NCBI GenBank assembly: GCA_030390025.1
Contig: CM059432.1
Location: 71,116,001 to 71,180,000 of the forward strand
Source of the DNA: Squalus acanthias
Taxonomy: Eukaryota
Direction: 5' to 3'
DNA length: 64,000 nucleotides
In this document: piece after piece, positions 4,302 through 61,893 of the stretch
Numbering within the stretch: the stretch's first letter is position 1
Layout of the letters: the number at the start of each line of letters is the position of its first letter
The notes under the pieces: generated by a model
Databases searched by the model: none
What the model was told of the DNA's origin: nothing
What the model saw: the letters and a program-made list of their open reading frames with translations, nothing else
Position numbers and translations under genes: made by a program

Positions 4302-5994
4302 GTCTAAATTACAAAAGCACTCCACGACAGTGCATACAAAAGTACAGCTGTTGAGAAATCTCTGATAAAACGTGTTCCCTAATTAATCAGCATATGGTTC
4401 TGCACAGTAAGAGGGTGAAATTTATCCTGTTGATAATTTTACCTTGACTAGAAAATAAAAAAGGTTCCCCCAATATGTCTATGACACGTTGTACTTGGTT
4501 TGGCAATTTCCTGAAATTTGTTCCCTAGCAACATCCAACTGGCATCTCAGGGTGCCATGTATGAGGACAAGTTAAAAGAAGAAAAGTCTGGCTGCTCTGA
4601 CAGCTGTCTTCATAATTATAACATCACAGATGCATGAGTCCACACACTTGGTTATCAAACTACAGATCTGTGTCTGCAGGACTTACTAGTAATAGGAGGC
4701 TGTCACATCTCTGCAGTTCGATATTGAGGTCCCTCTCTTACGCCACAGAATATTCGAACATGACGATGCCATTCTAGTTAGAAGTATTCTGTTCCTCTCT
4801 ATCTTGAATTACAATCTAATAGACTTTCTTAAATACAATCATTTGCTGCAGGCCTTTCAATCTTCATTGTGAAAAAAATCCTTTGTAGTTTGTAATCTCT
4901 AAGCACATATGTTTTGTGTTTAGCACGAATGGAATTTATCTATTGCTTAAGTTAACATTTTGTTTTGGAACTTAAATAAGGCAATGGCCTGGATTTTGCG
5001 TAGATAATAATGGTGAGTCTAACAGCGCTCACCATTATAACAGGGTAAATCGAATAGCAACTTTCCGCGTCCACACATGCGAAGTTAAATGCAGAAATTC
5101 AGAAGTTGCTCTCAGAGATAACCTGCTCCTCCACAGGGTGCGCTGTAACAGTCCTCACCGACAGACTCGGCACTGAAATCAATGCAATGCCGTGAACTTA
5201 GCGTATTTGCCCACAAGTTCCCCACTAAAGATGCCAGAAAAAGTTAGGGCTGGTGCATTTAGAAGTGAAATTTTAACGGAGTGATAAGTGACAATTACTG
5301 CCAAACAACCTCTCTGTCCCTGAAAATTTAATTTTACAAGTGTGAAGTCTCATGCCTTCAGAAGTTAATAAGTGTTGGAGATTTAAAAAAAATTAAAATA
5401 ATTTTCTTTTTACTTTTTCTGTCTTTTTTATCTCTCTTAATTCTATCTGTCTCTCTGTACATGATTTAGATCTAATTTATACTTCCTACTTTAAACTTCC
5501 TAGTTTAGACTCTGCGGGGGAAAAATTCATCCCCTTAGCGCCTCCCGTTAGCACCAGTAGATGGCGCTAATGGGACACTAGACCAGTATAGCCGGGCTGA
5601 GGCGAATCCACTGCCGCACGCCAAATCTGACCCCCCATAGCACCATCGGTAAGAGGTATCACCGGGAACGTCAACACCAGGTAGATCATGATGTCAGTGA
5701 GTGTGCTTCACTCACTGACCACCCGATTTGCTAAATTGATTGTCGCCACCTACCTCAGCACCTGGAATAAACACCGACAGGGAGAGCTGGCGTTCAGCAC
5801 CAGGAAGCCGGCTCCATGGATGTTATTTAAAGGGATCATCAGTAATCACTTGCAGCTGTTAGGTTAGTGTAGTTTCAGTAGTTTCTTGTCAGTTTCACCC
5901 ACTGCAACAGTTTCATTCAGTAATTTGAAGGTTCTTTTGTATCAGGAGTCTTCTGGGAACTTAAAAGTAGCTACATTTATTCTTCAAAGATTCA

Positions 5995-7343
5995 GGGCTA
6001 GAAATTTGTTATAGCCCAGGAATGGGCGGTATCTTTAGAAAAGTTTGAGAATTAGCGCCAGGCGCTAATGCTTTAGACTGCACGCAAAATTCATTCTCAC
6101 TGCTCAAAGAAATGTTTGGGGCACTAAATCAAGTCTTAAGGGCCTAGCTCAGTGGCGTTATACTCAAAGGGTGGACCAATATTGGGTGCAGTCTAATCTC
6201 AACTCATTTTTGCCACAGGCTTGTTCCAGTACTTAAAGGGGAGGTTCCTTGATACTGCAGCACCTCATTCTCAGCATTGCTTGCTGTGCAGCTGCCTCAG
6301 CAAGGAGAAGCACAACAAAGAGAAGGAGCCGGAGGAATGAAGCAGGTGTGCTCATGGCAGATCAACCTCAGTCAGGTGGTCAGGGTGATTGAATGCTTCA
6401 ACAAATGTTACATACCACCATTTGTACCACAAGCTTCACACACTGCCCAAAGCACTACACGCCCAGCACTCACCCACCAACAATTTCTACCTACCAAAAC
6501 TCACACCCACATCTCATGCCTTGCACACAATGACAGCTATTCAACTATGGCAGGCACAAGGGTCATTAGTTATTAGACTGAATGTGATATGTGTGATATG
6601 TTTATGCATAAATTCATTAATGGAGTTTGCAATATTTTGTGGTCTCTCTCATTTCACCTTTGCACCCAGGAGGACACTGTGATATGGCATGACACAGGGA
6701 TGGTATGCTGGGCATGTGGTGAGCCAAAGGGATCTGGGGTTTAAGTCATCCTGGTGAGAGCCCTGATGTCCCTCCTCATCCCTCAGCGCACATGTTCCTG
6801 TATTTCTGGATGCCTACTCTCCCTCTGCCATAGATCCTGGAGGGTGAGCTGGCATGCCAATACAGTCTCCATTAATGTTGCCAAGTGTATCAGTTTGAAT
6901 CTTTGAACAATAAATGTAGGCACTTTGCACTTGCCAGAACACTACTGATAAAAAAGAACCTTGAAATTACTCATACAAAGTGATCCACTGGCTGAAACTG
7001 ACAAGAAACCACTGAAACAAACTTGCCCTGACAGCTGCGAGTGACTAATGTGGATGCCTTTAAATAACGTCCCTGGAGCCAGCGTCCTGCAGCTGTGCGC
7101 CTGCTCTCCCTGTCACTGTCTGGTCGAGGCACAAAGGTAGGTGGTGAAAATCAATTTCGCAGATCGGGCGGCCAGAGAGCGTTGCTCGCTCACTGACATC
7201 ACAATCTGCCTGCCGTTTAAGTCCCCGGTGGTACCTCGTACCGGCAGTGCAACGGGGGACCGGATTTGCCGTGTGGCTCTGGATTCACCTCGCCCCAGCG
7301 CTACTGCATCAGCGCTCCGTTACCGCCATCTGAATTTTTCCCC
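5995..7343 (-). mobile_element. Non-autonomous Harbinger of the same family, nested in opposite orientation
   Basis: Ends GGGCTAGAAATT…GAATTTTTCCCC; exact TSD TCA (5992-5994 / 7344-7346); close inverted relative of 58320-59681. Confidence 0.85.
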
Positions 7344-7370
7344 CTCAAATTGCTACACTTGGTAACACTA

Positions 7371-7645
7371 ATGGGGGCTATACTGGCATGCCACCTCGCC
7401 CTCCAGGATCTACGGCGGAGGGAGCGTGGCAGTGAGAAATACGGGAACATGTGCGCAGAGAGATGAGGAGGGACATCAGGGCTCTCACCAGGAGGCCTTA
7501 CCCTGCGAGGGTATTCCGAGAGCACTTCTCCTACCTTCAATTAAGCGAGGAGCAGTGTATTAGACGGTTCCACCTCACCAAGGAGGTGGTCACAGAACTC
7601 TGCCACCTCCTCCAAACAGACCTCCAGCCTCACACCAGGATGATT
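7371..7645 (+). pseudogene. Harbinger transposase N-terminal fragment
   Basis: RRPYPARVFREHFSYLQLSEEQCIRRFHLTKEVVTELCHLLQTDLQP resembles the HARBI1-family N-terminus; truncated by an internal deletion. Confidence 0.75.
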
Positions 7646-8069
7646 AAAGGCCAGATCCCCTTTGCTCACCACATCCCCATCAACACCACAATAGAATGGT
7701 AAGTGAATTAATAAATTTATCAACTATCAGGGAACACAAATTTACACCAAAAATATTAACTATTCACCCTTGTGCAATCCCTTAGTGCCTGTTGTTACTG
7801 TGTCTTTGCCTACTCTAATGCTCCTACGAAGTGTTAGCCTTGTGGCTGCAGCAGGGCTGGTGGAAGGCTGCTGAGTGTCTGTGCGGGAGACTTTAGATGG
7901 TCTTACAGGACGCCCTCGACCAGCTCTGGACCTGCAAGGCCCAGCTGTAGATTGCACCACCGCAGTATGGGCAGCAGCAGTCTGGGCTGGCTGGATGAGA
8001 GGCAGCGACAAGGGCAATGGCGGAGTGGCAGTGGTGGGAGCAGGAATGCTGTCACCCTGAGAGAGGACA

Positions 8070-9831: not shown

Positions 9832-11400
9832 GCAGGTTCCTGCTCCATTGACCCACTGCCACTCCCCCGGGGCAGCACCTTAGCATCCCTAGCAGTCTGT
9901 TGGAGCACAGATTGCTGGCCTGCTCCGACACCGTGAAAGTCCCAGTCGACAGTGGGAGACCCAGCCACGATGGCAGCAGTCAGAGCTTGTGTGTCATCAA
10001 GCTGAGACTGCATTACAGCACTAAGATGTTGCGTCGCTTCTGCCTGTGCTGTGATGGAAGCTGCCAGATCGCCCATCACACGCGGCATCAGGTCTGGGTT
10101 GCTACGGTCTCTCTGGGAGTCTACCATCCTTTGCAGACTGGAAATGATGGGCTCCATGGTGTGCGCAGAGCTTTGGGCAATGTTGGAGGCGGACTCCTCC
10201 ACGCTCCTTACCATTGCCGACAGGCTCTCGGGCACCTTGCCATTGCACCTATCATCTCCGTGTGCATGCCCATCACCCTTCTTCTAATGGCCTCCTCATT
10301 GAGGTCCTCATCTGAGTCCTGTGCAGCAGAACTCGCGTGCGAACTCGCCCTCTGGGGAGCTGGCACCCGAGCTACCCTTTCCCCCAGGCCTTGCTGCAGC
10401 CCACTCGTCCCCAGTGCCTCACCCTGTGCAGATCCCGCTAGATACTAGCCTCTAAAGAACACGTAGTGTGAGTGTCTAAGCTGGTGTCTGCGGGTGAGAG
10501 ATGCAGTGATGCGGTGTGTTCTTCCTCCTCCTCTTCTCCCACTTCTCTCTCTACGGTGCCCTCAGGGACAGGCTGCTGAGGTGGTTGCTGATTGTCTGAA
10601 AGCATAAAGGCACAAAAGACAGGTTAAGGTGAGGGGAGGGGGGCAGGAAGGGAGAAATGCATGCATGCAACATGATTAGCTGGAAAGTGCGAAACGCTTG
10701 TGGGGTGAGGGGGAAGTGAGATGTGAGAAGAAGGAGTAGGGATGAACATACCATTGTTGTCCCAAAGAGGGTCAACATCGCCGGTGGCCACGGCACCCAC
10801 CACCTGGCGCCCAATAATCTGCAGCACTCGATTCTCCAGCTCAGACGATGGTTGGGTGTCGGCTTGTCCGCTACCTGTGCGCTCCTGCTCCCTCCTGTTG
10901 TGAGCCACCTTGCCTGCAAGAGAGAGGAAAGTGTGTGAGTGAGTGTGGAGCAATCTGTTTGGGTGATGTACCTGCCATAGTTGAATAGCTGTCATAGTGT
11001 GCAAGGTGTGAGATGTGGGTGTGAGTGTTGGTAGGTAGAGATTGTTGGTGGGTGAGTGCTGGGGGTGGTGGTGCTTTGGGCAGTGTGCGCAGACTGTGGT
11101 TCAGATGGTGGTATGTAGCATTTGTTGAAGCCTTCACTCACCCTGACCACCCAAGTGTGGTTGTTAAATTTCTTCCTGCACTGTGTGTGGGTCCTGAGAA
11201 CGTGCTGTGCTACCTCCCTCCACATGGCGCGGAAGACTTGTGGCGAGGGCCTCCTGCCACTTGCTGGGTAGAGCACCGCCCTCCGTCTCTCCACAGCGAA
11301 AACCAATCCTTCCAATGCTTCATTGGAGAATCTGTGGGCTCTCTCCCTGGTGAGTGGACCTGCCCTGAGCACATCTGGTTCAGTCCTCTGGCTCCTTCTC
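9832..11400 (-). pseudogene. Harbinger Myb/SANT-like DNA-binding gene remnant (multi-exon; tail continues at 7760-8069)
   Basis: ERAHRFSNEALEGLVFAVERRRAVLYP…WREVAQHV…QCRKKFNN; second exon KVAHNRREQERTGSG; Ser/Ala/Gln-rich C-terminal ORF at 9783-10235. Confidence 0.75.
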
Positions 11401-12928
11401 CTTGTTCTGCTTTTGCTATGCTGAGAATGAGGTGCTGCAGTATCAATGAACCGCCCCTTTAAGTATTGAAAAAAGCCTCTGGCAGTCATGTCTTGCAATT
11501 ATACTGCACTTAATATTGGTCCACTCTTTAAGTCTAACGCCAATGAGCTTGGGTTTTAAGACTTGATTTAGGACTCCAGTCATTTTATTGAGCAGAGCAC
11601 AAATTTTGCGTGCAGTCTAAAGCATTTGTGCCTGGCGTTAATTCTCCAACTTTTCTACTGACACTGCCCATTCCTTGGTTATAATGGATGTCTAGCCCTG
11701 TGTGTCTCAGTGAGGATTCATCAATCTGATTGGTTGAAGAGCCTTCCTGTTTCTTTACCTGCTCACAGACACCACAGATGCCCTGTAGAGGACGCCATGC
11801 TAGAACAGACGTCGGATTAGAGCAAGTCTGTGCTCAAAAGCCCCTGAACACTTGGTGAGCAGTTGTTAGCGAGGTGAACAGCAAGCCCCGCTGATCACAA
11901 AATCTGGGCCAATATTTATTTTCCTATTTAAAGCCCACCATTTGAATGTTGGTTATATTATTACATTTCAGCCTAAAATTCCTGATGCCTTGCTCTGTCA
12001 GCAGAAGTGCAGCGGACTTCCAACCGCCCACGAATCCCGCCGTCATTTCCAGTAGATATCCTGAGGTCAGTCCATTTATGTAATTATTCTGGGGTCCCCA
12101 CTGAAGACCCGCAGGTACCTGTGGTGTTGGAAGCTTAGATGCTGCTACAAAATTTAAAGCGTCAGTATTTCTTTTGGTGGTTCCTTCCCATCCTCCAGCT
12201 GAACTCCTCTCTCCAGTGCATTTTTATTAATTTGTTGCTGGGATGTGGGCTTCGCTGGCAAGGCCAGCATTCATTGTGCATCCCTAATTGCCCTTGAGAA
12301 GGTGGTGGTGAGCCGCCGCCTTGAACCACTGCAGTCTGTGTGGTGAAGGTACTCCCACAGTGCTGTTAGGGAGGGAGTTCCAGGATTTGACCCAGCGATG
12401 ATGAAGGAACGGCGATATATTTCCAAGTCAGGATGGAGTGATTTGGAGGGGAACTTGGAGGTGGCGGTGTTCTCATGCACCTGCTGCCTTGTCCTTCTAG
12501 GTGTTAGAGGTCGTGGGTTTGGGAGGTGCTGCCGAAGAAGCCTTGACGAGTTGCTGCAGTACAACTTGTAGATGGTACACACTGCAGCCACGGTGCACCT
12601 TTGGTGAAGGGAGTGAATGTTTAAGGTGGTGGATGGGGTGCCGATCAAGCAGGCTGCTTTGTCCTGGATGGTGTCGAGCTTCTTGAGTGTTGTTGGAGCT
12701 GCACTCATCCAGGCAAGTGGAGAGTATTCCATCAAACTCTTGACTTGTGCCTTGTAGATGGTGGAAAGGCTTTGGGGAGTCAGGAGATGAGAAACTTGCC
12801 ACAGAATACCTAGTCTCTGACCTGCTTTTGTAGCCACAGTATTTATGTGGCTGGTCCAGTTAAGTTTCTGGTCAATGGTGACCCCCCAGGATGTTGATGG
12901 TGGGGGATTTGGTGATGGTAATGCCATT

Positions 12929-13465
12929 CTACCCAACGTAAATTGAGGTCATCCAAAACTCGGCTGCCCGTGTCCTAATTCACACCAAGTCCTGTTCACC
13001 CATCACCCCTGTGCTCGTTGACCTACATTGGCTCCCGTTTAAGCAACGCCTCGATTTCAAAATTCTCATCCTTGTTTTCAAATCCCTCCATGGTCTCGCC
13101 CCTCCCTATCTCTGTAATCCCCTCTAGCCCCACAACCCCCCGAGATATCTGCGCTCCTCTAATCCTGCCCTCTTGAGCATACCTGATTACAATCACTCAA
13201 CCATTGGTGGCCGTGCCTTCTGTTGCCTAGGCCCTAAGCTCTGGAATTCCCTTCCCAAACCTCTCCGCCTCGCTACCTCTCTTTCCTCCTTTAAGAAGCT
13301 CCTTAAAAATCTACCTCTTTGACCAAGCTTTTGGTCATCTGCGCTAATTTATCCTTATGTGGCTCAGTGTCAATTTTTTTGTCTTATAATACTCCTGTGA
13401 AGCGCCTTGGGACGTTTTACTACGTTAAAGGCGCTATATAAATACAAGTTGTTGTTGTTGTTGTT
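12929..13465 (+). mobile_element. L2-type LINE 3' end with (GTT)n tail, inserted in the LINE above
   Basis: IQNSAARVL…HITPVLVDLHWLP…FKILILVFKSLHGLAPPYL; tail aaggcgctatataaatacaagttgttgttg. Confidence 0.85.
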
Positions 13466-14475
13466 GAATGTCAAGGAGCGGTGACTAGATTCTCTCTTGT
13501 TGGAGATAGTCATTGCCTGGGACCTGTGTGGCATGAATGTTACTTGCCACTTATCAGCCCAAGCCTGAATGTCATCCAGTTCTTGTTGCATGCAGGCATG
13601 GACTACTTCATTATCTGAGGAATTGCAAATGTAACTGAACACTGTGCAATCATCAGCGAACATCCCTACGTCTGACCTTATGATGGAGAGAAGGTCATGG
13701 ATGAAGCAGCTGAAGATGGTTGGGCCTAGGACATTGCCCTGAGGAACTCCTGCAGCAATGTCCTGGGGCTGAGATGATTGGCCTCCAACCACCACAACCA
13801 TCTTCCTTTGTGCTAGCTATAACTCCAGCCAATGGAAAGTTTTCCCCCTGATTCCCATTGACTTCAGTTTTACTAGGGGTCCTTGATGCCACACTCGGTC
13901 AAATGCTGCCTTGATGTCAAGGACAGTCACTCTCACCTCACCTCTGGAATTCAGCTCTATTGTCCATGTTTGGACCAAGGCTGTAATGAGGTCTGGAGCC
14001 AAGTGGTCCTGGCGGAACCGAAACTGAGCATCGGTGAGCAGGTTATTGGTGAGTAAGTGCTGCGTGAATTTCGACGACACCTTCCATCACTTTGCTGATG
14101 ATTGAGAGTAGACTGATGGGGCAGTAATTGGCTGGGTTGGATTTGTCCTGCTTTTTGTGGACTGGATGTACCTGGGCAGTTTTCCACATTGTCGGGTAGA
14201 TGCCAGTGTTGTAGCTGTACTGGAACAACTTGGCTAGAGGCGTGGCTAGTTCTGGAGCACAAGTCTTCAGCACGATAGTCAGGATGTTGTCGGGGCCCAT
14301 AGCCTTTGCTGTATCCACTGCGCTCAGCCATTTCTTGATATCACGTGGAGTGAATCGAATTGGCTGAAGACTGGCTTCTGTAATGGCGGGGACCTCAGGA
14401 AGAGGCTGAGATGGATCATCCACACGGTATTTCTGGCTGAAGATGGTTTCAAATGCTTCAGCCTTGTCTTTTGCA

Positions 14476-16010
14476 TTCCTGGCTGTTGTGCTGAAGACTT
14501 GTGCTCCAGAACTAGCCGCACCTCTAGCCAAGCTGTTCCCATACAGCTACAATACTGGCATCTATCGGACAATGTGGAAAATTGCCCAGGTATGTCCTGT
14601 CCACAAAAAGCAGGACAAATCCAATCTGGCCAATTACCGACCTATCAGTGTACTCGCAATCAGAAGCAAAATGATGTAAGGTGTCATCGACAGTGCTATC
14701 AAGCGGCACTTACTCACCAATAACCTGCTCACTGATGCCCAGTTTGGGTTCCGCCAAGATCACTTGGCTCCTGACCTCATTACAGTCTTGGTCCAAACAT
14801 GGACAAAGGAGCTGAATTCCAGAGGTGAGGTGAGAGTGACTGCCCTTGACATCAAGTCAGTATTTGACCGAGTGTGGCATCAAGGAGCCATAGTAAAACT
14901 GAAGTCAATGGGAATCAGGGGGAAAACTCTCCACTGGCTGGAGTCATACCTAGCACAAAGGAAGATGGTTGTGGTGGTTGAAGGTCAATCATCACAGCCC
15001 CAGGACATTGCTGCAGGAGTTCCTCAGGGCAGTGTCCTAGGCCCAACCATATTCAGCTGCTTCATCAATGACCTTCCCTCCATCATAAGGTCAGAAATGG
15101 GGATGTTCGCTGATGACTGCACAGTGTTCAGTGCCATTCACAACTCCTCAGATAATGAAGCAGTCACTGCCCGCATGCAACAAGACCTGGACGACATTCA
15201 GACTTGGGCTGATAAGTGGCAGGTAACATTCGAGCCACACAAGTGCCAGGCAATGACTATCTCCAACAAGCGAGAGTCTAGCCACCGCCCCTTGACATTC
15301 AACGGCATTACCATCGCCGAATCCCCCACCATCAATATCCTGGGGGTCACCATTGACCAGAAACTTAACTGGACCAGCCACATAAATACTGTGGTAACAA
15401 GAGCAGGTCAGAGGCTGGGTATTCTGCTTCGAGTGTCTCACCTCCTGACTCCCCAAAGCCTTTCTACCATCTACAAGGCACAAGTCAGGAGTGTGATGGA
15501 ATACTCTCCACTTGCCTGGATGAGTGCAGCTCCAACAACACACAAGAAGCTCAACACCATCCAGGACAAAACAGCCTGCTTGATTGGCACCCCATCCACC
15601 ACCTTAAACATTCACTCCCTCCACCACCAGCGTACTGTGGCTGCAGTGTGTACCATCTACAAGATGCACTGTAGTAACTCACCAAGGCTTCTTCGGCAGC
15701 ACCTCCCAAACTCACGACCTCTTCCACCTAGAAGGACAAGGGCAGCAGGCACCTGGGAACACCACCACCTCCAAGTTCCCCTCCAAGTCACACACCATCC
15801 TAACTTAGAAGTATATCGGCGATCCTTCATCGTCGCTGGGTCAAACTCCTGGAACTCCCTACCTAACAGCACTGTAACTTCACTACACGGACTGCAGTGA
15901 TTCAAGAAGGCAGCTCACCACCACCTGCTCAAGGGCGATTAGGGATGGGCAATAAATGCCGGCCTTGCCAGCGAAGCCCATATCCCATAAACAAATATAT
16001 TTTTTTTAAA
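14476..16010 (+). mobile_element. 5'-truncated copy of the same CR1-group LINE, inserted antisense in a sister copy
   Basis: 378-aa RT ORF at 14764-15900 (ALDIKSVFDRVWH, GVPQGSVLGP, FADDC, ILGVTID); same 3' end. Confidence 0.9.
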
Positions 16011-16889
16011 CTCGCTTAACGGGCTCTGCCATCATTGTGAATGGGGATGTTCATGGAGCCTACTCCTCCCATTAGTTATTTAATTGTCTACCACCATTCA
16101 CGACTGGATGTAGCAGGAGTGCCGAGCTTTGATCTGCTCCGTTGGTTGTGGGATCACTTAGCTCTGTTTATAGCACGCTGTTTCTGCTGTTTAGCATGCA
16201 GGTAGTCCTGTGTTGCAGCTTCCCCAGGTTGGCACCTCATATTTAGGTACGTCTGGTGCTGCTCCTGGCATGCTCTTTTACATTCCTCATTGAACCAGGA
16301 TTGGTTCCCTGGCGTGATGGTAATGATAGAGTGAGGGATATGCCGGGCCATGAGGTTACAGATTGTGGTGGAATATAATTCTGCTGCTGTTGATGGCCCA
16401 CGGCGCCTCATGGATGCCCAGGTTTGAGCTGCTAGAACTGTTCTGAATCTATCCCATTTAGCACGGTGGTAGTGCCACACAACACGGTAGAGGGTTTCCT
16501 CAGTTTGAAGACAGAAGTTTGTCTCCACAAGGACTTTGCGTTGGTCACTGCTATCAGTACTGTCATGGACAGATGTGTCTGCGACAGGTAGATTGGTGAA
16601 GACGAGGTAAAGCAGGTTTTTCCCTCGTGTTGGTTCTCTCATCACCTGCTGCAGGCCCAGACTGGCAGTTATGTGCTTCAGGACTCAGCCAGCTCGGTCA
16701 GTATTGGTGCTAGTGAGCCATTCTTGGTCATGGACATTGAAGTCCCCCACCCAGAGTAAATTCTGTGCCCTTGCTACTCTCAGTGCTTCTTCCAAGTGGT
16801 GTTCAACATGGTGGAGTACTGATTCATCAGCTGAGGGAGGGCGGTAGGTGGCAATTAGCAGGAGGTTTCCTTGCCCATGCTTGACCTAA

Positions 16890-17080
16890 AGCCATAATTA
16901 TGCAGGATGTAGCGGGGGATGACTATTATCAATAGCCAGGCCGGAGCATACTGCAAAGATCCACCAGACCTGTCCAGACAGTGGGATTGCGCTTTCAGCA
17001 TTCCAAAGCTTTGCCCTGTTATGACTCTGTTGAATGTGTGGGCCGCATTGTATCTCTCCTCAGCCTCACTATGAGAAATC
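16890..17080 (-). pseudogene. Old Harbinger DDE transposase C-terminal fragment
   Basis: EAEERYNAAH…FGMLKAQSHCLDRSGGSLQYAP…ILHN. Confidence 0.7.
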
Positions 17081-17203: not shown

Positions 17204-17918
17204 GGGGGAAAAATTGGTTGGCGGCCATTTTGGGGCACTAACATTGCCATGGCGCTAATTTTAGCGGCCCGAAAAAGTTAGCGCTCCCCCGCCGTAAATT
17301 CAGTAGTAGCACCCCAAGCAGGAGGTGGGGCACTACTGGAAAGTGCTCCAACTCCTGCTTGGGGCGCTACTACTGAATTTCACGGTGCTATGTGCAGCAG
17401 TGCCACGCGCGGCGGCAATTATCACTGCGTCATTGCAGGCCTCCTCCCCTGATTAAAGGAGAGGGGCCTAGCCCTGCGTGCACCGGGGCCCTGCTGGACC
17501 ACTGGGGAGCGGGGTGCCGTGAAAACATCCCGGCACTCAAGAGGAGTGCCGGGCTGAGCGATCGCGGCAGGCACCCGGCATACAAAAGCGAAAGTGGGCA
17601 GGTGCTGGCAATCAGCCAAAATAAAAATGGCCGCCCGACACCTGCCCTTTAACTTGCGCCACCGCCTCTGCCAAACCACCCCCCTGATCCTGTAGCACAT
17701 AGCGTGCGGCGATAGGTCAGGGGGCGTAAGGGAAGTTTGCGGCCGGGGCGCAAGCGGGGCGTTGCGCACGGTGATGACAGCTACCACCGCCGCTAACCTC
17801 CCGCTGAATTTCTCGGGAGGCGTTAGCGGCGCCACACCTGGGCGCTAGGGGTTTTGCGCCCTGTTAGCACCCCTCTGGGACGCTAACGAGAGGCGCAAAG
17901 CAATCCAAATTTTCCCCC
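17204..17918. mobile_element. GC-rich Harbinger MITE
   Basis: TIR GGGGGAAAAATTGG / CCAAATTTTCCCCC; exact TSD AAT; internal 39-bp hairpin. Confidence 0.85.
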
Positions 17919-26692: not shown

Positions 26693-26939
26693 TGTGGCGG
26701 ATCGCCACCTAAACGGGCACAATCCACTTTTCCGTCCGTGGACAATATATCGGGCACCTTGCCTTTAAGGCACCTTGCCTTTAAGGCAGGAGAAAAGGAG
26801 TGGGCGGGGCCTCAGAATTTTTTCCAGATAATTCTGTGAGCAGTTGTTTTCAGCCATTTTGACCAGGTAGTTGTATTAAAAAGTTTTATGTCCCACACAT
26901 GGACTCGGTCTTAATTCGTGTTTCGCGGCAGCCTCAACA
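26693..26939 (+). repeat. Gypsy 5' LTR
   Basis: Differs from the 3' LTR at 2 of 247 positions by eye; contains a duplicated ggcaccttgcctttaa. Confidence 0.95.
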
Positions 26940-26940
26940 T

Positions 26941-26952
26941 TGGTGACCCCGA
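26941..26952 (+). promoter_or_regulatory. Primer-binding site (tRNA-Trp)
   Basis: TGGTGACCCCGA immediately after the 5' LTR. Confidence 0.85.
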
Positions 26953-30790: not shown

Positions 30791-31037
30791 TGTGGCGGAT
30801 CGCCACCTAAACGGGCACAATCCACTTTTCCGTCCGTGGACAATATATCGGGCACCTTGCCTTTAAGGCACCTTGCCTTTAAGGCAGGAGAAAAGGAGTG
30901 GGCGGGGCCTCAGGATTTTTTCCAGATAATTCTGTGAGCAGTTGTTTTCAGCCATTTTGACCAGGCAGTTGTATTAAAAAGTTTTATGTCCCACACATGG
31001 ACTCGGTCTTAATTCGTGTTTCGCGGCAGCCTCAACA
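30791..31037 (+). repeat. Gypsy 3' LTR
   Basis: Direct repeat of 26693-26939, followed by TSD GTGT. Confidence 0.95.
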
Positions 31038-31290
31038 GTGTTAAGTTTCATTTATTTTGATGAAACAAATAAATTTTGTTCTTTGCACCACTTTCGGGTC
31101 TTGTCCATTTTTGCCTCAAACCTTGGAAGTGGCCTTGTCACTTGAAGTGAATGGTGAGACATCACTTAACCTCGCACACTGGGGCTTTGGGTGAGAAGAA
31201 TGGATTGGTCATTGTAGGGATGCTTTATGGTGTTGTTGGTGGGGGAACTTAGTACAGCATGTGGCAGGGAAGTGGCTGCATTGGAGCAAG

Positions 31291-37273: not shown

Positions 37274-37970
37274 AGGGGTAATCTTAACGTTGAAAAGTGC
37301 GTGGGTTTGGGTGCTGGTGGGAAATTAAATCCACCGAAAATATCACCACATCCAGAAGGCGGTTCCAACGCGCCGACTTCTGAGTTTAACTCGGGCCCGT
37401 TTGACAGGTTAGCAATTTAAATATGTAAATCGCTTAATTGCAGCGATATTTTGATCCACCTTCAAATTTAACGGCAAATCCACGGGTTCCCCAGGCTTCG
37501 CCATCGAAACCAAAGCGAGAACAGAATGGCAATTCATGGGGCTCATTCAAAGTCAGGCAAATACAGCAATAAATATTCAGTGCTCACAGCTGCTTTCTTA
37601 TCTACCACTGGGAAAGGTTTTCTTCAGAGTACTGTGGTGAGTGGTTAATTTTGCACTTTGGAGGTTGGGTGGCGCCTTTGCTGCCTTAGACTGGACTTCA
37701 GGTGAGGAGCAAAGTGACCATCAGCAGCAGCAACAGCCTGTTGTGGAGAGACCTGCAGGTGGTCAGCATAGAGGGGAGCAGCAGAGAGGGGAGCAGCAGA
37801 GAGGGGAGCAGCAGAGAGGGGAGCAGCAGAGAGGGGAGCAACAGAGAGGGGAGCAACAGAGAGGGGAGCAACAGAGAGGGGAGCAACAGAGAGGGGAGCA
37901 GCAGAGAGGGGAGCAGGAGGCACTACCTGCGAAATAGGATGTACAGGCAGAGGCTGAGCTTCCTTGATCT
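37274..37970 (+). mobile_element. Harbinger left end plus transposase N-terminus
   Basis: [19 protein letters not shown] matches the N-terminus of the 31291-32471 transposase. Confidence 0.6.
37770..37919. repeat. 15-bp minisatellite, about 10 copies
   Basis: (agaggggagcaRcag)x~10. Confidence 0.95.
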
Positions 37971-55460: not shown

Positions 55461-57625
55461 GGGAATGGTAGCCTGGTGGTTATGTTGCTGGACTAGTAAT
55501 TCAGAGGCCTGGACTAATGATCTGGAGACATGAGTTGAAATCCCACCATGGCAGCTGGGGAATTTAAATTCAGTTATTTAAATAAATCTGGAATAAAAAG
55601 CTAGTATCAGTAATAGTGACCATGAAACTACCGGATAGTCGTAAAAAATCATCTGGTTCACAAATGTCCTAAATAGAAGAAAATCTGCCGCTCTTACCCG
55701 ATCTGGCCTATATGTGATTCCAGACCCACAGCAATGTGGTTAACTCTTAACTGCCCTCTGAAATGGCCTAGCAAGCTACTCAGCTGTAACAAACCGCTAG
55801 GAAACACAATAATAAAAATAACAGCGGACAGACCACCCGGCATTGGCTAGGCACCTGATTCAGACACGGCAAAGGCACACCCAGTTCAGTCGACCGTGCA
55901 AAGTCCTCCTTATAACATCTGGGGACTTGTGTCAAAATTGGGAGAGCTGTCCCACAGACTAGTCAAGCAACAGCCTGACATAGCCATACTCACAGAATCA
56001 TACCTTTCAACCAATGTCCCAAACACCTCCATCACCATCCCTGGGTATGTCCTGTCCCACCGGCAGGACAGATCCACCAGAGGTGGCGGCACAGTGATAA
56101 ACAGTCGGGAAGGAGTGGCCCTGGGAGTTCTCAACATTGACTCTGGATCCCATTAAGTCTCATGGCATCAGGTCAAACATAGGCAAGGAAACCTCCTGCT
56201 GATTACCACCTACCACCCTCCCTCAGCTGATGAATCAGTACTCCTCCATATTGTGCACCACTTGGAAGAAGCACTGAGGGTAGCAAGGGCACAGAATGTA
56301 CTCTGGGTGGGGGACTTCAATGTCCATCACCAAGAGCGGTTCAGTAGCACCACTGCTGAACGAGCTGGTCGAGTCCTGAAGGATATAATTGCCAGAGTGG
56401 GCCTGCGGCAGATAGTGAGAGAACCAACACGAGGGAAAAACCTACTTGACCTTGGCCTCACCAATCGACCTGTCGCAGATGCATCTGTCCACCGCACAGT
56501 CCTTGTGGAGACGAAGTCCTGTCTTCACACTGAGGATACCCTCCATCGTGTTGTGTGACACTACCATGGTGCTAACTGGGATAGATTCAGAACAGATCTG
56601 GCAGTTCAAAAGTCGGCATCCATGAGGCACTGTGGGCCATCAGCAGCAGCAGAATTGTATACCACCAGAATCTGTAACCTCATGACTGGCATATCCCTCA
56701 CTCTACCATTACTATCAAAGCAGGGGACCAACCCTGGGTCAATGAGCAGTGTAGAAGAGCTGCCAGGAGCAGCACCAGGTGGTCCGTGCCCAGATGCAGC
56801 AGGACCTGAATGACACCCAGGCTTGGGCTGATAAGTGGATGGTAACATTCGCACCACACAAGTGCTAGGCAATGACCATTTCCAACAAGAGAAAGTCTAG
56901 CCACCTGCCCTTGACATTCAATGGGTTTACCATCGCCAAATCCCCCACCATCAAGATCCTGGGGGTCCACCATTGACCACAAACTTAACTGGACCAGCCA
57001 CATAAATACTGTGGCAACAAGAGCAGGTCAGAGGCTAGATATTCTGCGGCAAGTATCTCACCTCCTGACTCCCCAAAATCTTTCCACCATCTACAAGGCA
57101 CAAGTCAGGAGTGTGATGGAATACTCTCCATGCCTGGATGAGTTCAGCATCAAATCACTGAAGAAGCTCGACACCATCCAGGACAAGGCAGCCCGCTTGA
57201 TTTGCACCCCATCCACCACCTTAAACATTCACTCCCTCCACCTCCGGCGTACGCTGCCTGCAGTGTGTACCATCGACAAGATGCACTGCAGCAACTCGCC
57301 AAGGTTTCTTTGACAGCACCTCCCAAACCATTGACCTCTACCACCCAGAAGGACAAGGGCAGCAGGCGCATGGGAACAACATCACCTCCAAGTTCCCCTC
57401 CAAGTTACAAACCATCCTAACTTGGAGATATATTGCTGTTCCTTCATCGTCGCTGGGTCAAAATCCTGGAACTCCCTCCCTAACAGCACTGTGGGAGTAC
57501 CATCACCTCACGAACTGCAGCAGTTCAAGAAGGTGGCTCACCACCAGCTCCTCAAAGGCAATTAGGGATGGGCAATAAATGTTGGCCTTGCCAGCGATGC
57601 CCACATCCCAGGAACAAATAAAGAA
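55461..57625 (+). mobile_element. CR1-group LINE with tRNA-derived head, APE, internal deletion (~56780) and RT 3' end
   Basis: A box TAGCCTGGTGG at 55469; B box GAGTTGAAATCCC at 55532; NIWGL, ILTESYL, VGDFNVHH, PTRGKNLLDL; same 3' end as 14476-16010. Confidence 0.88.
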
Positions 57626-58319
57626 AATAGAACCTGCCAGCATAGCATGACTGAGGATTTATGGTCCTGATGTGTCTATGGTGTGACAGGAATGAGTGGA
57701 GCCATGAGTGAGCACTGTCACAGAGGTGGATTGCAGAGAATAGACATCATAATAGGACAGATGATGTCAAAGGGACCAGAGATATTGAAGGGTATGAGGA
57801 GAAACAGCAAACCATTTGTGACCTTGACTAGGATAGTCTCTGTATTGTTGTAGTGAGGGTAGAAGCTGGATTCAAGAGTCTTGAATGGGATGTAGAGAAT
57901 TGTTTTTAAGAATGAGGGTGGGAACAGTAGTTTTGAAGAGGATAGGGACAATACTAGAGGTTAGAGATGGGTTGACGCTATTGTTAAACAAAGAGCTGTG
58001 AATGAGAAGTTAGTCAAGACTGGGAAAGGGAGGGGATTTAGGAAGCAGGTTCATCGATAATATGTGTTTAATGAGGTTTTGTAGGGAAGACAGAATAGAT
58101 TCAATGAAGTATAGGGGTTGATCAAGAAGAAGATGGGTATAGAGATTGTGATTAGAGGGCACAGGGAGGGAGGGATTGACTAAGACGGGTGGCTGTGAAG
58201 ATACTCTTGATTTTGAACATCTGAAAAAAATCAATGAGTTCATCACATTTGGTGACTGAGGTGAGATTGAAGGGTACAGTGGAGGGAAGTTGCAGGAGAT
58301 GGTTGGTACTGGAGACAAG

Positions 58320-59681
58320 GGGGGATAAATTTGGCAGGTTAGCGCCTCCCATTAGCGCCTGCAGAGGGCGGTAATGGGGCGCTGATGCAGTAGCGCCGGA
58401 GCGAGGCGAATCCAGCACCGCACAGCAAATCCGAAATGCCCCTCCCCCCCGTTGCGCCACTGGTACGAGGTACCGCCTGGGACTTCAACGCCAGGCAGAT
58501 CATGACGTCAGTGAGTGTGCAACGCTCACTGGGAGCCCGATCTGGAAAATTCATTGTTGCACTTGCCTTTGCGCCTCAACCAGACAGCGACAGGGATAAC
58601 TGGAGCATAGCTGCAGGAAGCCCGCTCCAGCGACGTTATTTAAAGGCATCAGCATTAATCACTCACAGCTGTCAGGGCAGGTTAGTTTCAGTGGTTTATT
58701 GTCAGTTTCACCAAGTGGATGAGTTTGTATGAGTAATTTCAAACTTCTTTTTTATCAGCAGTCAGAAATACGGGAACCTGTGCACAGAGGGAGGAGAAGG
58801 GACATCAGGGCTCTCACCAGGAGGCCTTATCCTCTGAGGGTATTCCAACAGCACTTCTCCTACCTTCAATTAAGTGAGGAGCAGTGTATGAGACAGCCCC
58901 GCATCACCAAGGTGGTGGTCACAGAACTCTGCCACCTCCTCCAACTAGATCTCCAGCCTCACACCAGGATGACTTAAACCCCAGATCCCTTTTGCTCACC
59001 ACATGCCCATCATACCATCCCTGTGTCATGCCATATCACAGTGTCCTCCTGGGCGCAAAGGTGAAATGAGAGAGACCACAAAATACTGCAAACTCCATTA
59101 ATAAATTTATGCATAAACATATCACACATATCACATTTATTCTAATAACTAATGACCCTTGTGCCTGCCATAGTTGAATAGCTGTCATTGTGTGCAAGGC
59201 GTGAGATATGGGTGTGGGTGTTGGTAGATAGAGATTGTTGGTGGGTGAGCGCTGGGGATGTGGTGCTTTGGGCAGTGTGTGAAGCTTGTGGTACAAATGG
59301 TGGTATGTAACATTTGTTGAAGCATTCAATCACCCTGACCACCCGACTGAGATGGATCTGCCATGAGCACACCTGCTTCAGTCCTCCGGCTCCTTCTCCT
59401 TGTTGTGCTTCTCCTTGCTGAGGCAGCTGCACAGCCAGCAATGCTGAGAATGAGGTGCTACAGTATCAATGAACCTCCCCTTTAAGTACTGGGAAAAGCC
59501 TGTGGCAATGGTGAGTTGAGATTAGACTGCACCCAATATTGGTCCACCCTATGAGTGTAACGCCACTGAGCTAAGCCTTTAAGACTTGATTTAGCACCCC
59601 AGTCATTTCTTTGAGCAGTGCGAATTTTCAAACTTTTCTAAAGATACCGCCCATTCCTGGGCTATAATGAATTTCTAGCCC
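58320..59681 (+). mobile_element. Non-autonomous Harbinger, sister of 5995-7343
   Basis: GGGGGATAAATTT…GAATTTCTAGCCC; exact TSD AAG; transposase and Myb scraps. Confidence 0.85.
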
Positions 59682-60185: not shown

Positions 60186-60319
60186 ACTAAGTTGTATGAA
60201 AAGTATGAGACCATGGAATGGAAGCAATAGTGTTGCTAGAGATGGCCTAGCCAGATTACATGGTGAACATCTAGGCTGGTCACTCGCCAATTGCATTCAG
60301 GTTTATGACACAGGATCAC

Positions 60320-60715
60320 CACCTCATCCACTAGCCTAAACATCCATCCGTCCTCCACTGGCACACCGTGACTGCAGTGCGTACTATCTATGGAATGCAC
60401 TGAAGTAAATCGTCAAGGCTTCTTCAGCAGAACTTCCCAAACACACGACTTCCACCATCTAGCAGGATAAGGGCAGCAGGTGCATGGAAACACCATCACC
60501 TCCAAGTTCCCCTCCAAGCCACGCACAATCCTGACTCGAACATATATTGCCGTTCTTTCATCGTCACTGGGTCAAAATCCTGGAACTCCCTCCCTAACAG
60601 CACATGGACTGCAGCAGTTCAAGAAAAAGGCCCACCACCATCTATTCAAGGGAAACGGGTAATGGGCAATAAATGCCAGCCTTGCCAGCGATGCTCTTAT
60701 CCTGAGAATGAGTTT
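60320..60715 (+). mobile_element. 3' fragment of the tRNA-headed LINE family
   Basis: Matches 57200-57610, including gggcaataaatgccagccttgccagcg. Confidence 0.8.
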
Positions 60716-61570: not shown

Positions 61571-61893
61571 TAAAAAAAAATTCATTTATGGGATGTGGGC
61601 GTCGCTGGCAAGGCCAGCATTTATTGCCCATCCCTAATTGCCCTTGAGAAGGTGGAGCTGAGCAGTTCAGAGGGCAGTCTGTGGGTCTGGAGTCACATGT
61701 AGACCAGAAAATTTCCTTTCCTAAAAGACATTAGTGAACCAGAAGGGTTTTTGTCACAAAACTGGCAACCATTACTGATACTAGCTTTTTAATTCTAGAT
61801 TTATTTAATTAACTGAATTTAAATTCCCCAGCTGCCATGGTGGGATTTGAACTCATGTCTCCAGATCATTAGTCCAGGCCTCTGGATTACTAG
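61571..61893 (-). mobile_element. tRNA-derived SINE made of the 5' head and 3' tail of the tRNA-headed LINE
   Basis: ~61665-61893 matches 55493-55760; ~61590-61655 matches the LINE 3' end; B box GAGTTCAAATCCC. Confidence 0.85.

What the first reader, a model, noticed from the sequence alone, without database searches (positions are those of the whole stretch)
55461..57625. Candidate RNA-polymerase-III-transcribed, protein-coding LINE: tRNA head, no ORF1, no sense-strand TTTT
Seen: the element begins with tRNA-type internal promoter boxes (A box TAGCCTGGTGG at 55469; B box GAGTTGAAATCCC at 55532, GAGTTCAAATCCC in the sister SINE). About 440 nt later it enters the APE domain (KVLL.NIWGL), leaving no room for ORF1. 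Joining this copy with 12222-16887 gives a ~3.3-kb head-APE-RT-tail element. In a manual scan I found no TTTT on the sense strand of three copies (55461-57625; 14476-15990; no AAAA on + in the element's own parts of 12230-16887), while sense AAAA runs are common and neighbouring CR1s carry many sense TTTT. Established: four or more T terminate vertebrate Pol III, and LINEs are normally Pol II units, with CR1/L2-group elements usually encoding ORF1. Inference: this RT-coding element was selected for Pol III read-through, so it behaves as an autonomous SINE-like LINE and would need cap-independent or otherwise unusual translation. I do not know whether this has been described.
Basis: partly seen in the sequence, partly recalled or inferred. 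Interest (0 to 1): 0.9.

Follow-up and report, generated by a model that had tools for sequence, protein, structure and literature searches.

The report
Shark LINE with a SINE promoter
This is a dead copy of a shark and ray jumping gene whose full-length copies start with a tRNA-type promoter, avoid runs of T and have no normal start codon, so it may be a protein-coding retrotransposon transcribed by RNA polymerase III, which is thought to make only short non-coding RNAs.

Summary
The window copy is a dead, internally deleted member of a 3.3-kb single-ORF (APE-RT) LINE, the elasmobranch Zenon of Stuart et al. 2026 (PMC13343379). Missing ORF1 and the poly-A tail are already described for that clade; I found nothing in print on the rest.

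27 of 32 fetched copies run head to tail from one sharp 5' end, a tRNA-Thr(AGT)-like head. Its A and B boxes are kept in the published consensus of five elasmobranchs and absent from hagfish and coelacanth Zenons. The copy majority has no TTTT. That alone is weak (P 0.02-0.22 by null), but TTT is depleted (5 vs 11.3, P 0.004; lowest of 44 LINE ORFs), while a Tx1 ORF of equal T content has 9 TTTT.

New here: the 3' end has AATAAA, a variable T-run and then poly-A, like polyadenylated Pol III SINEs. The ORF has no in-frame AUG before the APE. It opens at a GCU codon complementary to a nearby anticodon-like loop, resembling a dicistrovirus IRES; this is unproven.

Pol III transcription ~0.65; IRES-like pseudoknot ~0.35. 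No expression data test either.

The parts
55461..55552 (+). tRNA-Thr(AGT)-like head with long variable arm; sharp 5' end of the element
   Evidence: shared 5' boundary in unrelated flanks; ARAGORN tRNA-Thr in L044 and L056; homologous head in five published elasmobranch Zenon consensus sequences, read by eye
55469..55479 (+). Pol III A box (degenerate in this copy, canonical in the majority)
55493..55499 (+). anticodon loop of the head (anticodon AGT)
55532..55544 (+). Pol III B box (damaged in this copy; textbook form in three other species' consensus)
55645..55755 (+). leader core, nearly invariant across five elasmobranchs; predicted long hairpin plus GNRA hairpin; candidate ribosome-binding domain
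   Evidence: by-eye comparison; folding of the majority; MFE not better than shuffles, z -1.1
55756..55783 (+). hairpin with 7-nt anticodon-like loop (55768-55774, anticodon AGC); candidate PKI stem
   Evidence: loop invariant in five species by eye
55796..55799 (+). GCU codon plus A, complementary to the loop; in frame with APE-RT; candidate codon mimic and non-AUG start
   Evidence: in frame in 35 of 39 scored copies
55796..56779 (+). basic N-terminal extension, APE endonuclease and start of linker (several stops and frameshifts in this copy)
56780..57565 (+). C-terminal part of RT and C-terminus to the TAG stop, after a 1.1-kb internal deletion
57566..57628 (+). 3' UTR with AATAAA (57574-57579) and A-rich tail; other copies have 1-10 T directly before the A tail
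12222..16895 (-). second, 5'-truncated copy of the same family (16895-16011, 14476-13464, 12928-12222), interrupted by an antisense copy and an L2-like insert
14476..15997 (+). third, 5'-truncated copy (RT to tail, ends in T8 then A3)
61580..61893 (-). non-autonomous derivative (sister SINE): element positions 33-271 joined to the last ~85 nt, ending in T9 then A3
60314..60702 (+). older 3' fragment of the same family

Best explanation
The element is an autonomous Zenon (CR1-group) LINE whose elasmobranch lineage replaced its Pol II 5' UTR with a tRNA-derived head, once, before sharks and rays split. SHOWN: the head is a fixed part of the retrotransposed unit; there is one ORF with intact APE and RT motifs; sense T-runs are depleted; there is no in-frame AUG before the APE; the tail is AATAAA, a variable T-run, then poly-A. 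INFERRED: (1) Master copies are transcribed by Pol III from the A/B boxes through 3.3 kb, so any copy that gains an internal T4 drops out of the lineage. (2) Transcripts end at the terminal T-run and are polyadenylated, as in T+ SINEs, or read on to a flanking T-run. (3) The uncapped RNA is translated by internal, AUG-independent entry on the conserved leader, most likely through a tRNA-anticodon mimic that pairs with the in-frame GCU like PKI of dicistrovirus IGR IRESs (about 0.35 on its own). (4) APE-RT then copies the RNA by target-primed reverse transcription, and also mobilises internally deleted derivatives that look like ordinary SINEs.
For: Head linkage: all 40 scored matches (39 besides the window) of 14,768 candidates span head and APE; 27 of 32 fetched copies run head to tail; 1,061 genome sites have the exact B-box 13-mer 355-385 nt upstream of the exact APE 18-mer. 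Boxes are kept in five species while the arm between them is rearranged or lost. Relatives without the head (hagfish and coelacanth 5' ends; L063) contain TTTT, and L063 has an in-frame AUG. T-runs: ORF TTT 5 vs 11.3 under synonymous shuffling (P 0.004) with A, C and G runs normal; lowest ratio of 44 LINE ORFs (0.44, next 0.76); 4-of-5-T windows 1 vs 5.6 (P 0.0085); no TVTTT minimal terminator; Tx1 at 20.8% T has 9 TTTT. A leader slippage site reaches T4 in 13 of 379 and 36 of 1,065 copies of two subfamilies (3.4% each), so it arises repeatedly and no T4 lineage expanded. Tail: T4+ followed by A in 10 of 36 3' ends vs 21 of 1,128 flank windows, the anatomy described for T+ SINEs (PMC8466645, passages). 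First in-frame Met is residue 287 of 973, behind nine non-productive leader AUGs; 74 of 84 full-length homologues have a Met before the APE motif.
Against: No transcription or translation data: no run on record as RNA, and contigs cannot show ends, strand or caps. TTTT absence alone is not significant under codon-preserving or dinucleotide nulls (P 0.15, 0.22), and the element is TT-poor overall (o/e 0.71). TTT is not itself a terminator, so its depletion needs a secondary explanation. T elongation at a T/A boundary also occurs in SINEs without a terminator (24% of short-tailed Ves_c), and AATAAA plus poly-A fits Pol II too; the poly-A tail is clade-wide. 3.3 kb is far beyond usual SINE length (100-700 bp, PMC10886601). 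IRES model: no Rfam IRES match; PKII and the L1.1 motifs not found; only 3-4 bp of loop-codon pairing; the U33-like position differs in 12 of 42 copies; the published SquAca_Zenon-1 consensus is one A short, which would shift the frame, although 37 of 37 scored copies here have the in-frame spacing. B-box linkage (1,061) is about half that of an equally distant downstream marker (2,340); the fall is gradual (2,688, 1,797, 1,061), as 5' truncation predicts, but a minority alternative 5' end is not excluded.
Confidence: 0.65

Rival explanations
1. Pol II LINE with a captured SINE 5' end. Full-length RNA comes from Pol II (a promoter in the conserved leader, or host read-through with processing at the tRNA-like fold). 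The boxes persist because they shape chromatin or RNA processing, or serve the SINE derivatives. U-runs are avoided for another reason (splice or decay signals, innate RNA sensing, piRNA, pairing with the poly-A tail, mutation bias).
For: LINEs are described as Pol II units (PMC10886601). AATAAA plus poly-A fits Pol II. TTTT absence is modest against codon nulls. TTT depletion goes beyond what a T4 terminator strictly requires.
Against: Boxes sit at +9 and +72 of a sharp 5' end exactly as in SINEs and are kept in ORF-bearing copies and five species. Other LINEs of the same genome and Zenon relatives without the head keep T-runs. Loss of the AUG and nine leader AUGs are hard to square with cap-dependent scanning.
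Confidence: 0.25
2. Pol III transcription, but translation by another route than a PKI-type IRES: near-cognate start (ACG or TTG), reinitiation or a -1 frameshift from the +1 uORF at element position 358, or capping of the Pol III transcript.
For: An out-of-frame AUG (48-codon uORF overlapping the APE start) is present in five species' consensus; ACG follows GCU in this genome; class 6 IRES hallmarks are missing.
Against: That AUG is lost in 5 of 27 copies and in many rows, so some lineages did without it; ACG is ACA or AAA in the other species; length changes between GCU and the uAUG are multiples of three in four species (by eye), pointing to a start at or before GCU in the APE frame.
Confidence: 0.35
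3. Chance adjacency of a SINE and a 5'-truncated LINE, with T-run absence explained by base composition.
For: A SINE with the same head exists in the window and genome; one copy alone is only weakly T4-depleted.
Against: Identical junction in over a thousand genomic sites and five species; the SINE is an internal deletion of the LINE; Tx1 with the same T content has T-runs.
Confidence: 0.01

Closest known systems
Elasmobranch Zenon LINEs (SquAca_Zenon-1, CarCar, RhiTyp, ScyCan, HypSab; Stuart et al. 2026, PMC13343379)
   Same: Same family: first 400 nt of SquAca_Zenon-1 match the copy majority by eye, length 3314 vs 3305; single APE-RT ORF, no ORF1, poly-A tail.
   Different: The paper's main text has 0 hits for tRNA, polymerase, promoter or start codon; head, T-run depletion, AUG loss and tail T-run are not described there.
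T+ SINEs (B2, Dip, Ves; PMC8466645)
   Same: tRNA-type A/B boxes; AATAAA, terminal T-run of variable length and A tail; no internal terminator.
   Different: Non-coding, a few hundred nt, mammalian; need beta and tau signals, not tested here. This element is 3.3 kb and encodes its own APE-RT.
Dicistrovirus IGR IRES, type 6 (PMC10516663, PMC10275262)
   Same: About 155-nt structured leader ending in an anticodon-like hairpin complementary to an in-frame codon; non-AUG ORF beginning GCU/ACN.
   Different: PKII, PKIII and L1.1 motifs not identified; pairing only 3-4 bp; no Rfam match; it lies in a retrotransposon 5' leader. PMC3894237 raised such IRESs in non-LTR elements only as a hypothetical.
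RTE-1_DAn and relatives (one sentence in Kojima 2018, PMC5786205)
   Same: An autonomous LINE said to contain a tRNA-like sequence.
   Different: RTE clade in Drosophila; position, boxes and polymerase not discussed in the passages read; sequence not available here.
Lepidopteran Zenon and its SIDE Persaeus (PMC6740152)
   Same: Single-ORF Zenon giving internally deleted non-autonomous copies.
   Different: Explicitly lacks tRNA homology and a Pol III promoter.
TRIMp3 (Cassandra, Helenus, Ajax; PMC10886601)
   Same: Retroelements other than SINEs carrying a Pol III promoter.
   Different: Short, non-coding LTR elements.

Membership tests
Zenon (CR1 group) | single APE-RT ORF, no ORF1 | tested here: met
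   one 973-codon frame; Pfam PF14529, PF03372, PF00078
Zenon (CR1 group) | poly-A tail | tested here: met
Zenon (CR1 group) | RT groups with named Zenon references | tested here: inconclusive
   quick tree places it in a 27-row clade beside, not within, the clade holding the window's CR1; no named Zenon RT was available; assignment rests on the 5' match to SquAca_Zenon-1
tRNA-derived SINE (SINE2) | tRNA-derived head with A and B boxes at the 5' end | tested here: met
tRNA-derived SINE (SINE2) | non-autonomous, non-coding, 100-700 bp | tested here: not met
   3.3 kb with APE-RT ORF; only the deleted derivatives meet it
tRNA-derived SINE (SINE2) | transcribed by Pol III | not testable with these tools
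   no usable RNA data
T+ SINE | AATAAA, then terminator or its rudiment, then A tail | tested here: met
   AATAAA at element 3260; T4+A in 10 of 36 ends, T3A in 7 more; slippage caveat
T+ SINE | beta and tau signals; AAUAAA-dependent polyadenylation of a Pol III RNA | not tested
   needs transfection assays
Type 6 (IGR) IRES | ORF begins without AUG, commonly at GCU or ACN | tested here: met
Type 6 (IGR) IRES | 3' pseudoknot PKI mimicking anticodon-codon pairing, in frame | tested here: inconclusive
   3-4 bp complementarity, conserved in five species by eye; no compensatory change seen; U33-like base varies in 12 of 42 copies
Type 6 (IGR) IRES | PKII with L1.1 loop motifs | tested here: not met
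   helix listing found no pairing of the long hairpin's loop with the segment before the 3' hairpin; loops do not match the motifs quoted in PMC10275262; no Rfam hit
Type 6 (IGR) IRES | factor-independent 80S binding | not testable with these tools
   needs toeprinting

The most novel reading that the evidence does not exclude
An autonomous SINE: a vertebrate retrotransposon whose 3.3-kb protein-coding RNA is made by Pol III, terminated and polyadenylated like a T+ SINE, and translated without cap, AUG or initiation factors from a dicistrovirus-like anticodon-mimic IRES. It has run this way since before sharks and rays split, and its ordinary-looking SINEs are just internal deletions of it.
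Probability: 0.3. Interest if true: 0.97.

Novelty: new variant of a known kind. Interest (0 to 1): 0.85.

Why it matters
The SINE/LINE divide rests on Pol III for short non-coding elements and Pol II for coding ones (stated in PMC10886601 and PMC5786205). A natural 3.3-kb Pol III mRNA would break that rule and test whether Pol III processivity really limits SINE length. It would give a route for SINE birth by simple deletion and suggest that some conserved SINE 'bodies' are relic ribosome-entry structures. A cellular-genome example of a factorless IRES would bear on where such IRESs come from. A compact single-ORF Pol III retroelement is also of interest as an expression tool. Each step is testable with short reporter constructs.

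Tried and rejected
TTTT absence as sole evidence: P 0.15 (synonymous shuffle), 0.22 (first-order Markov), 0.14 (third-base redraw); kept only with the TTT, 4-of-5 and control results. 6-nt windows with 5 T: 0 vs 1.2, P 0.26. Selective loss of conserved Phe: not seen (9 of 15 kept vs 63% overall), although Phe content is the lowest of 85 proteins at 1.85%. Target-site duplications: 4 of 16 copies with 5 nt or more vs 20% of swapped flank pairs, so not shown. A T4-carrying subfamily, suspected from 17 of the first 100 rows, was rejected by equal 3.4% rates in two subfamilies. 'No ORF1' as evidence for Pol III: rejected, clade-wide. Identity with SacSINE1, HE1 or CmiSINE: their described partners are L2-2_CM or HER1, and I saw no match, but their sequences were not compared by tool. 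Rfam: no IRES or ribozyme family. HDV-like or hammerhead ribozyme in the leader: looked for by eye against recalled motifs, not found. Leader fold energy not better than shuffles. Leader motif absent from viral and prokaryotic collections. Expression: no RNA holder listed; laid contigs cover the whole element in four runs but cannot show ends or strand. Earlier scan notes: nothing. Nishihara 2006 not held. Further SINE copies could not be fetched, so which leader parts SINEs keep rests on three local copies and the joints.

Full report
OBSERVATION. Window 55461-57628 begins with an A box (55469-55479) and a B box (55532-55544), reaches the APE motif NIWG at 55914 and ends in AATAAA plus an A-rich tail. 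It has several stops and lacks about 1.1 kb of the RT region, and its B box is damaged, so it is a dead copy. None of the five element segments in the window has a sense TTTT. For this copy alone that is weak (P 0.033 mononucleotide, 0.12 dinucleotide).

THE HEAD BELONGS TO THE ELEMENT. The window lies in a 3.7-Gb genome. A search with 55461-56160 gave 14,768 candidates; all 40 scored matches (one is the window) span head and APE. These are best hits and so favour complete copies. I fetched 5 kb around 32 of them, leaving out the window and 7 loci with visible deletions or a contig end. 27 of 32 run head to tail (3.09-3.46 kb) from one sharp 5' end in unrelated flanks and are 92.6-96.9% identical to their column majority. 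Exact-pattern counts are free of best-hit bias. The APE-start 18-mer occurs 7,055 times. It is linked to markers 150, 248 and 370 nt upstream 2,688, 1,797 and 1,061 times, and to a marker about 370 nt downstream 2,340 times. The gradual fall fits 5' truncation, though a minority alternative 5' end is not excluded. ARAGORN calls tRNA-Thr(AGT) at the 5' end in 2 of 7 copies scanned; Rfam gives only a weak tRNA match (14.7 bits). Target-site duplications were not distinguishable from chance.

IDENTITY. The majority is 3,305 nt with one stop-free frame of 973 codons carrying APE and RT domains and their catalytic motifs. The nearest database proteins are 35-47% identical, many about 930-990 aa on 3-4 kb contigs. 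An unfinished (quick) RT tree puts it in a clade beside the one holding the window's CR1. Stuart et al. 2026 (PMC13343379; I read text parts 1-4 of 8, passages, supplement part 1 and two supplement searches) describe elasmobranch Zenon elements as lacking ORF1 and carrying poly-A. The first 400 nt of their SquAca_Zenon-1 (3,314 nt) match the majority by eye. The family is therefore known, and 'no ORF1' is a clade trait. Their main text has no hit for tRNA, polymerase, promoter or start codon. Supplement cells are cut at 400 characters, so the full-length sequences, which bear directly on the T-run claim, were not seen.

CROSS-SPECIES (by eye). White shark, whale shark, catshark, stingray and dogfish consensus sequences all start with the homologous head. 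Three have a textbook B box. The arm between the boxes is changed in dogfish and missing in stingray, and none shows TTTT in its first 400 nt. Hagfish (2) and coelacanth (1) Zenon 5' ends show no such head and do contain TTTT; the coelacanth 5' part is low-confidence. A metagenome member of the same clade, L063, has no B-box match, an in-frame Met at codon 21 and 20 TTTT in its ORF.

T-RUNS. The majority has 0 TTTT, 7 TTT and 14 AAAA. TTTT absence: P 0.019 (mononucleotide), 0.15 (synonymous codon shuffle), 0.22 (first-order Markov). Stronger results are ORF TTT 5 vs 11.3 (P 0.004) with A, C and G runs normal, and 4-of-5-T windows 1 vs 5.6 (P 0.0085). There is no TVTTT, which with TTTT is the minimal terminator in PMC8466645 (passages). 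The TTT ratio of 0.44 is the lowest of 44 ORFs tested (this one, one Tx1, and the 42 of 80 metagenome loci with an open frame of 600 codons or more); the next is 0.76. Most of those controls are T-richer. The best-matched one is a young Tx1 ORF2 from the same genome with 20.8% T and 9 TTTT in 3.9 kb. In two chimeric copies TTTT occurs only in the foreign part. Dead copies gain TTTT by mutation: 11 in 87 kb of bodies, 21 of 27 with none, against 6.1 per kb in flanks. One leader TTT slips to TTTT often (17 of the first 100 rows had T4+, counting substitutions). Genome-wide the insertion is in 13 of 379 and 36 of 1,065 copies of two subfamilies, 3.4% each, so it recurs and no T4 lineage expanded. 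RNA structure could equally constrain that site.

3' END. AATAAA lies about 45 nt before the tail, and the T-run in front of the A tail varies from 0 to 10. 10 of 36 3' ends have T4+ followed by A, against 21 of 1,128 flank windows; 7 more have T3A. This is the anatomy of T+ SINEs, whose Pol III transcripts are polyadenylated. That paper also reports T elongation in 24% of short-tailed copies of a subfamily without a terminator, so slippage contributes.

TRANSLATION. The first in-frame Met is residue 287, past the APE. The leader holds nine AUGs, all out of frame or closed by stops. 74 of 84 full-length homologues have a Met before the APE motif (gene callers may write M for other starts). Leader positions ~185-340 are almost invariant in the five species. 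They fold into a long hairpin in which one pair reads A-U, G.U or G-C by species (by eye). They end in a hairpin with a 7-nt loop of anticodon-loop form (recalled tRNA pattern), anticodon AGC. 11-12 nt downstream lies GCU-A, invariant in all five species while its neighbours vary. It is the third codon after the last in-frame stop and is in frame with the APE in 35 of 39 scored copies (3 of 42 not scored). This resembles PKI of dicistrovirus IGR IRESs, which start without AUG, commonly at GCU (PMC10516663, PMC10275262, passages). Against it: no Rfam hit, no PKII or L1.1 motif, only 3-4 bp, the U33-like base varies in 12 of 42 copies, and the fold is not unusually stable. In those viruses GCU usually follows PKI rather than forming it; I did not test that alternative register. 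I therefore say it may work like a type 6 IRES, not that it is one.

SINE DERIVATIVES. The window SINE is element 33-271 joined to the last 85 nt. Contig joints in four public runs link positions ~286-335 to the tail. The joints seen thus fall before the GCU codon.

MECHANISM AND ODDS. Pol III transcription of master copies 0.65; Pol II with a passenger head and another cause of U-run avoidance 0.25; chance adjacency 0.01. The PKI-type start is about 0.35 and other non-canonical initiation about as likely. Nothing here measures transcription: no run was on record as RNA.

NOVELTY. Ten full-text searches found no description of a Pol III-transcribed coding LINE. Repbase, Dfam and most subscription journals could not be searched. 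[quoted passage not shown] Kojima 2024 states the Pol II/Pol III divide and the 100-700 bp SINE limit (PMC10886601, passages), and lepidopteran Zenon derivatives lack a Pol III promoter (PMC6740152, passages). Also seen, with no mention of this feature in what I read: PMC5499810 (parts 1-2 of 6) and passages of PMC7245038, PMC4824008, PMC3747384, PMC11481361, PMC7140322 and bioRxiv 10.1101/443036. Verdict: a known family with an apparently undescribed expression strategy, well supported in anatomy and unproven in mechanism.

Noticed in passing
L143 and L144 (junction near locus position 770, minus strand): Two copies on different small contigs share a junction where the Zenon frame runs in frame into a foreign, CR1-like ORF2 segment (label recalled) after element position 2686; probably one chimera duplicated.
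   Followed up: partly
L145-L148; rows with 1,306-aa open frames: A young Tx1-like family (63% GC) with several intact ORF2 frames, some about 7 kb apart in tandem, suggesting a multicopy target site.
   Followed up: no
27-copy alignment: T in the CTA context mutates at 6.3%, two to four times most other T contexts, equally to A, C and G; unexplained.
   Followed up: no
window 55545-55555 and 55685-55691 equivalents (element 88-94 and 225-231): A 7-bp long-range pairing between the segment just after the B box and the loop of the leader hairpin, with 5-6 bp kept in other species by eye; possible pseudoknot tying head to leader.
   Followed up: partly
window 55818 equivalent (element 358): A +1-frame AUG opening a 48-codon uORF over the APE start; present in five species' consensus but lost in the window copy and in many genomic copies.
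   Followed up: partly
window 26693-26942 and 30791-31040: 250-bp direct repeat at 98.8% identity inside a GC-rich stretch (about 26-31 kb).
   Followed up: no
window 5516-7682, 10967-11700 and 58320-59681: Another interspersed repeat family, rearranged, in several pieces at 74-90% identity; no LINE protein match.
   Followed up: no
window 17292-17385 and 37764-37919: A 94-bp palindrome and a short tandem array.
   Followed up: no
window 12929-13463 (+): L2-like 3' fragment inserted into the second Zenon copy; it carries T-runs on the Zenon sense strand, unlike the host element.
   Followed up: partly
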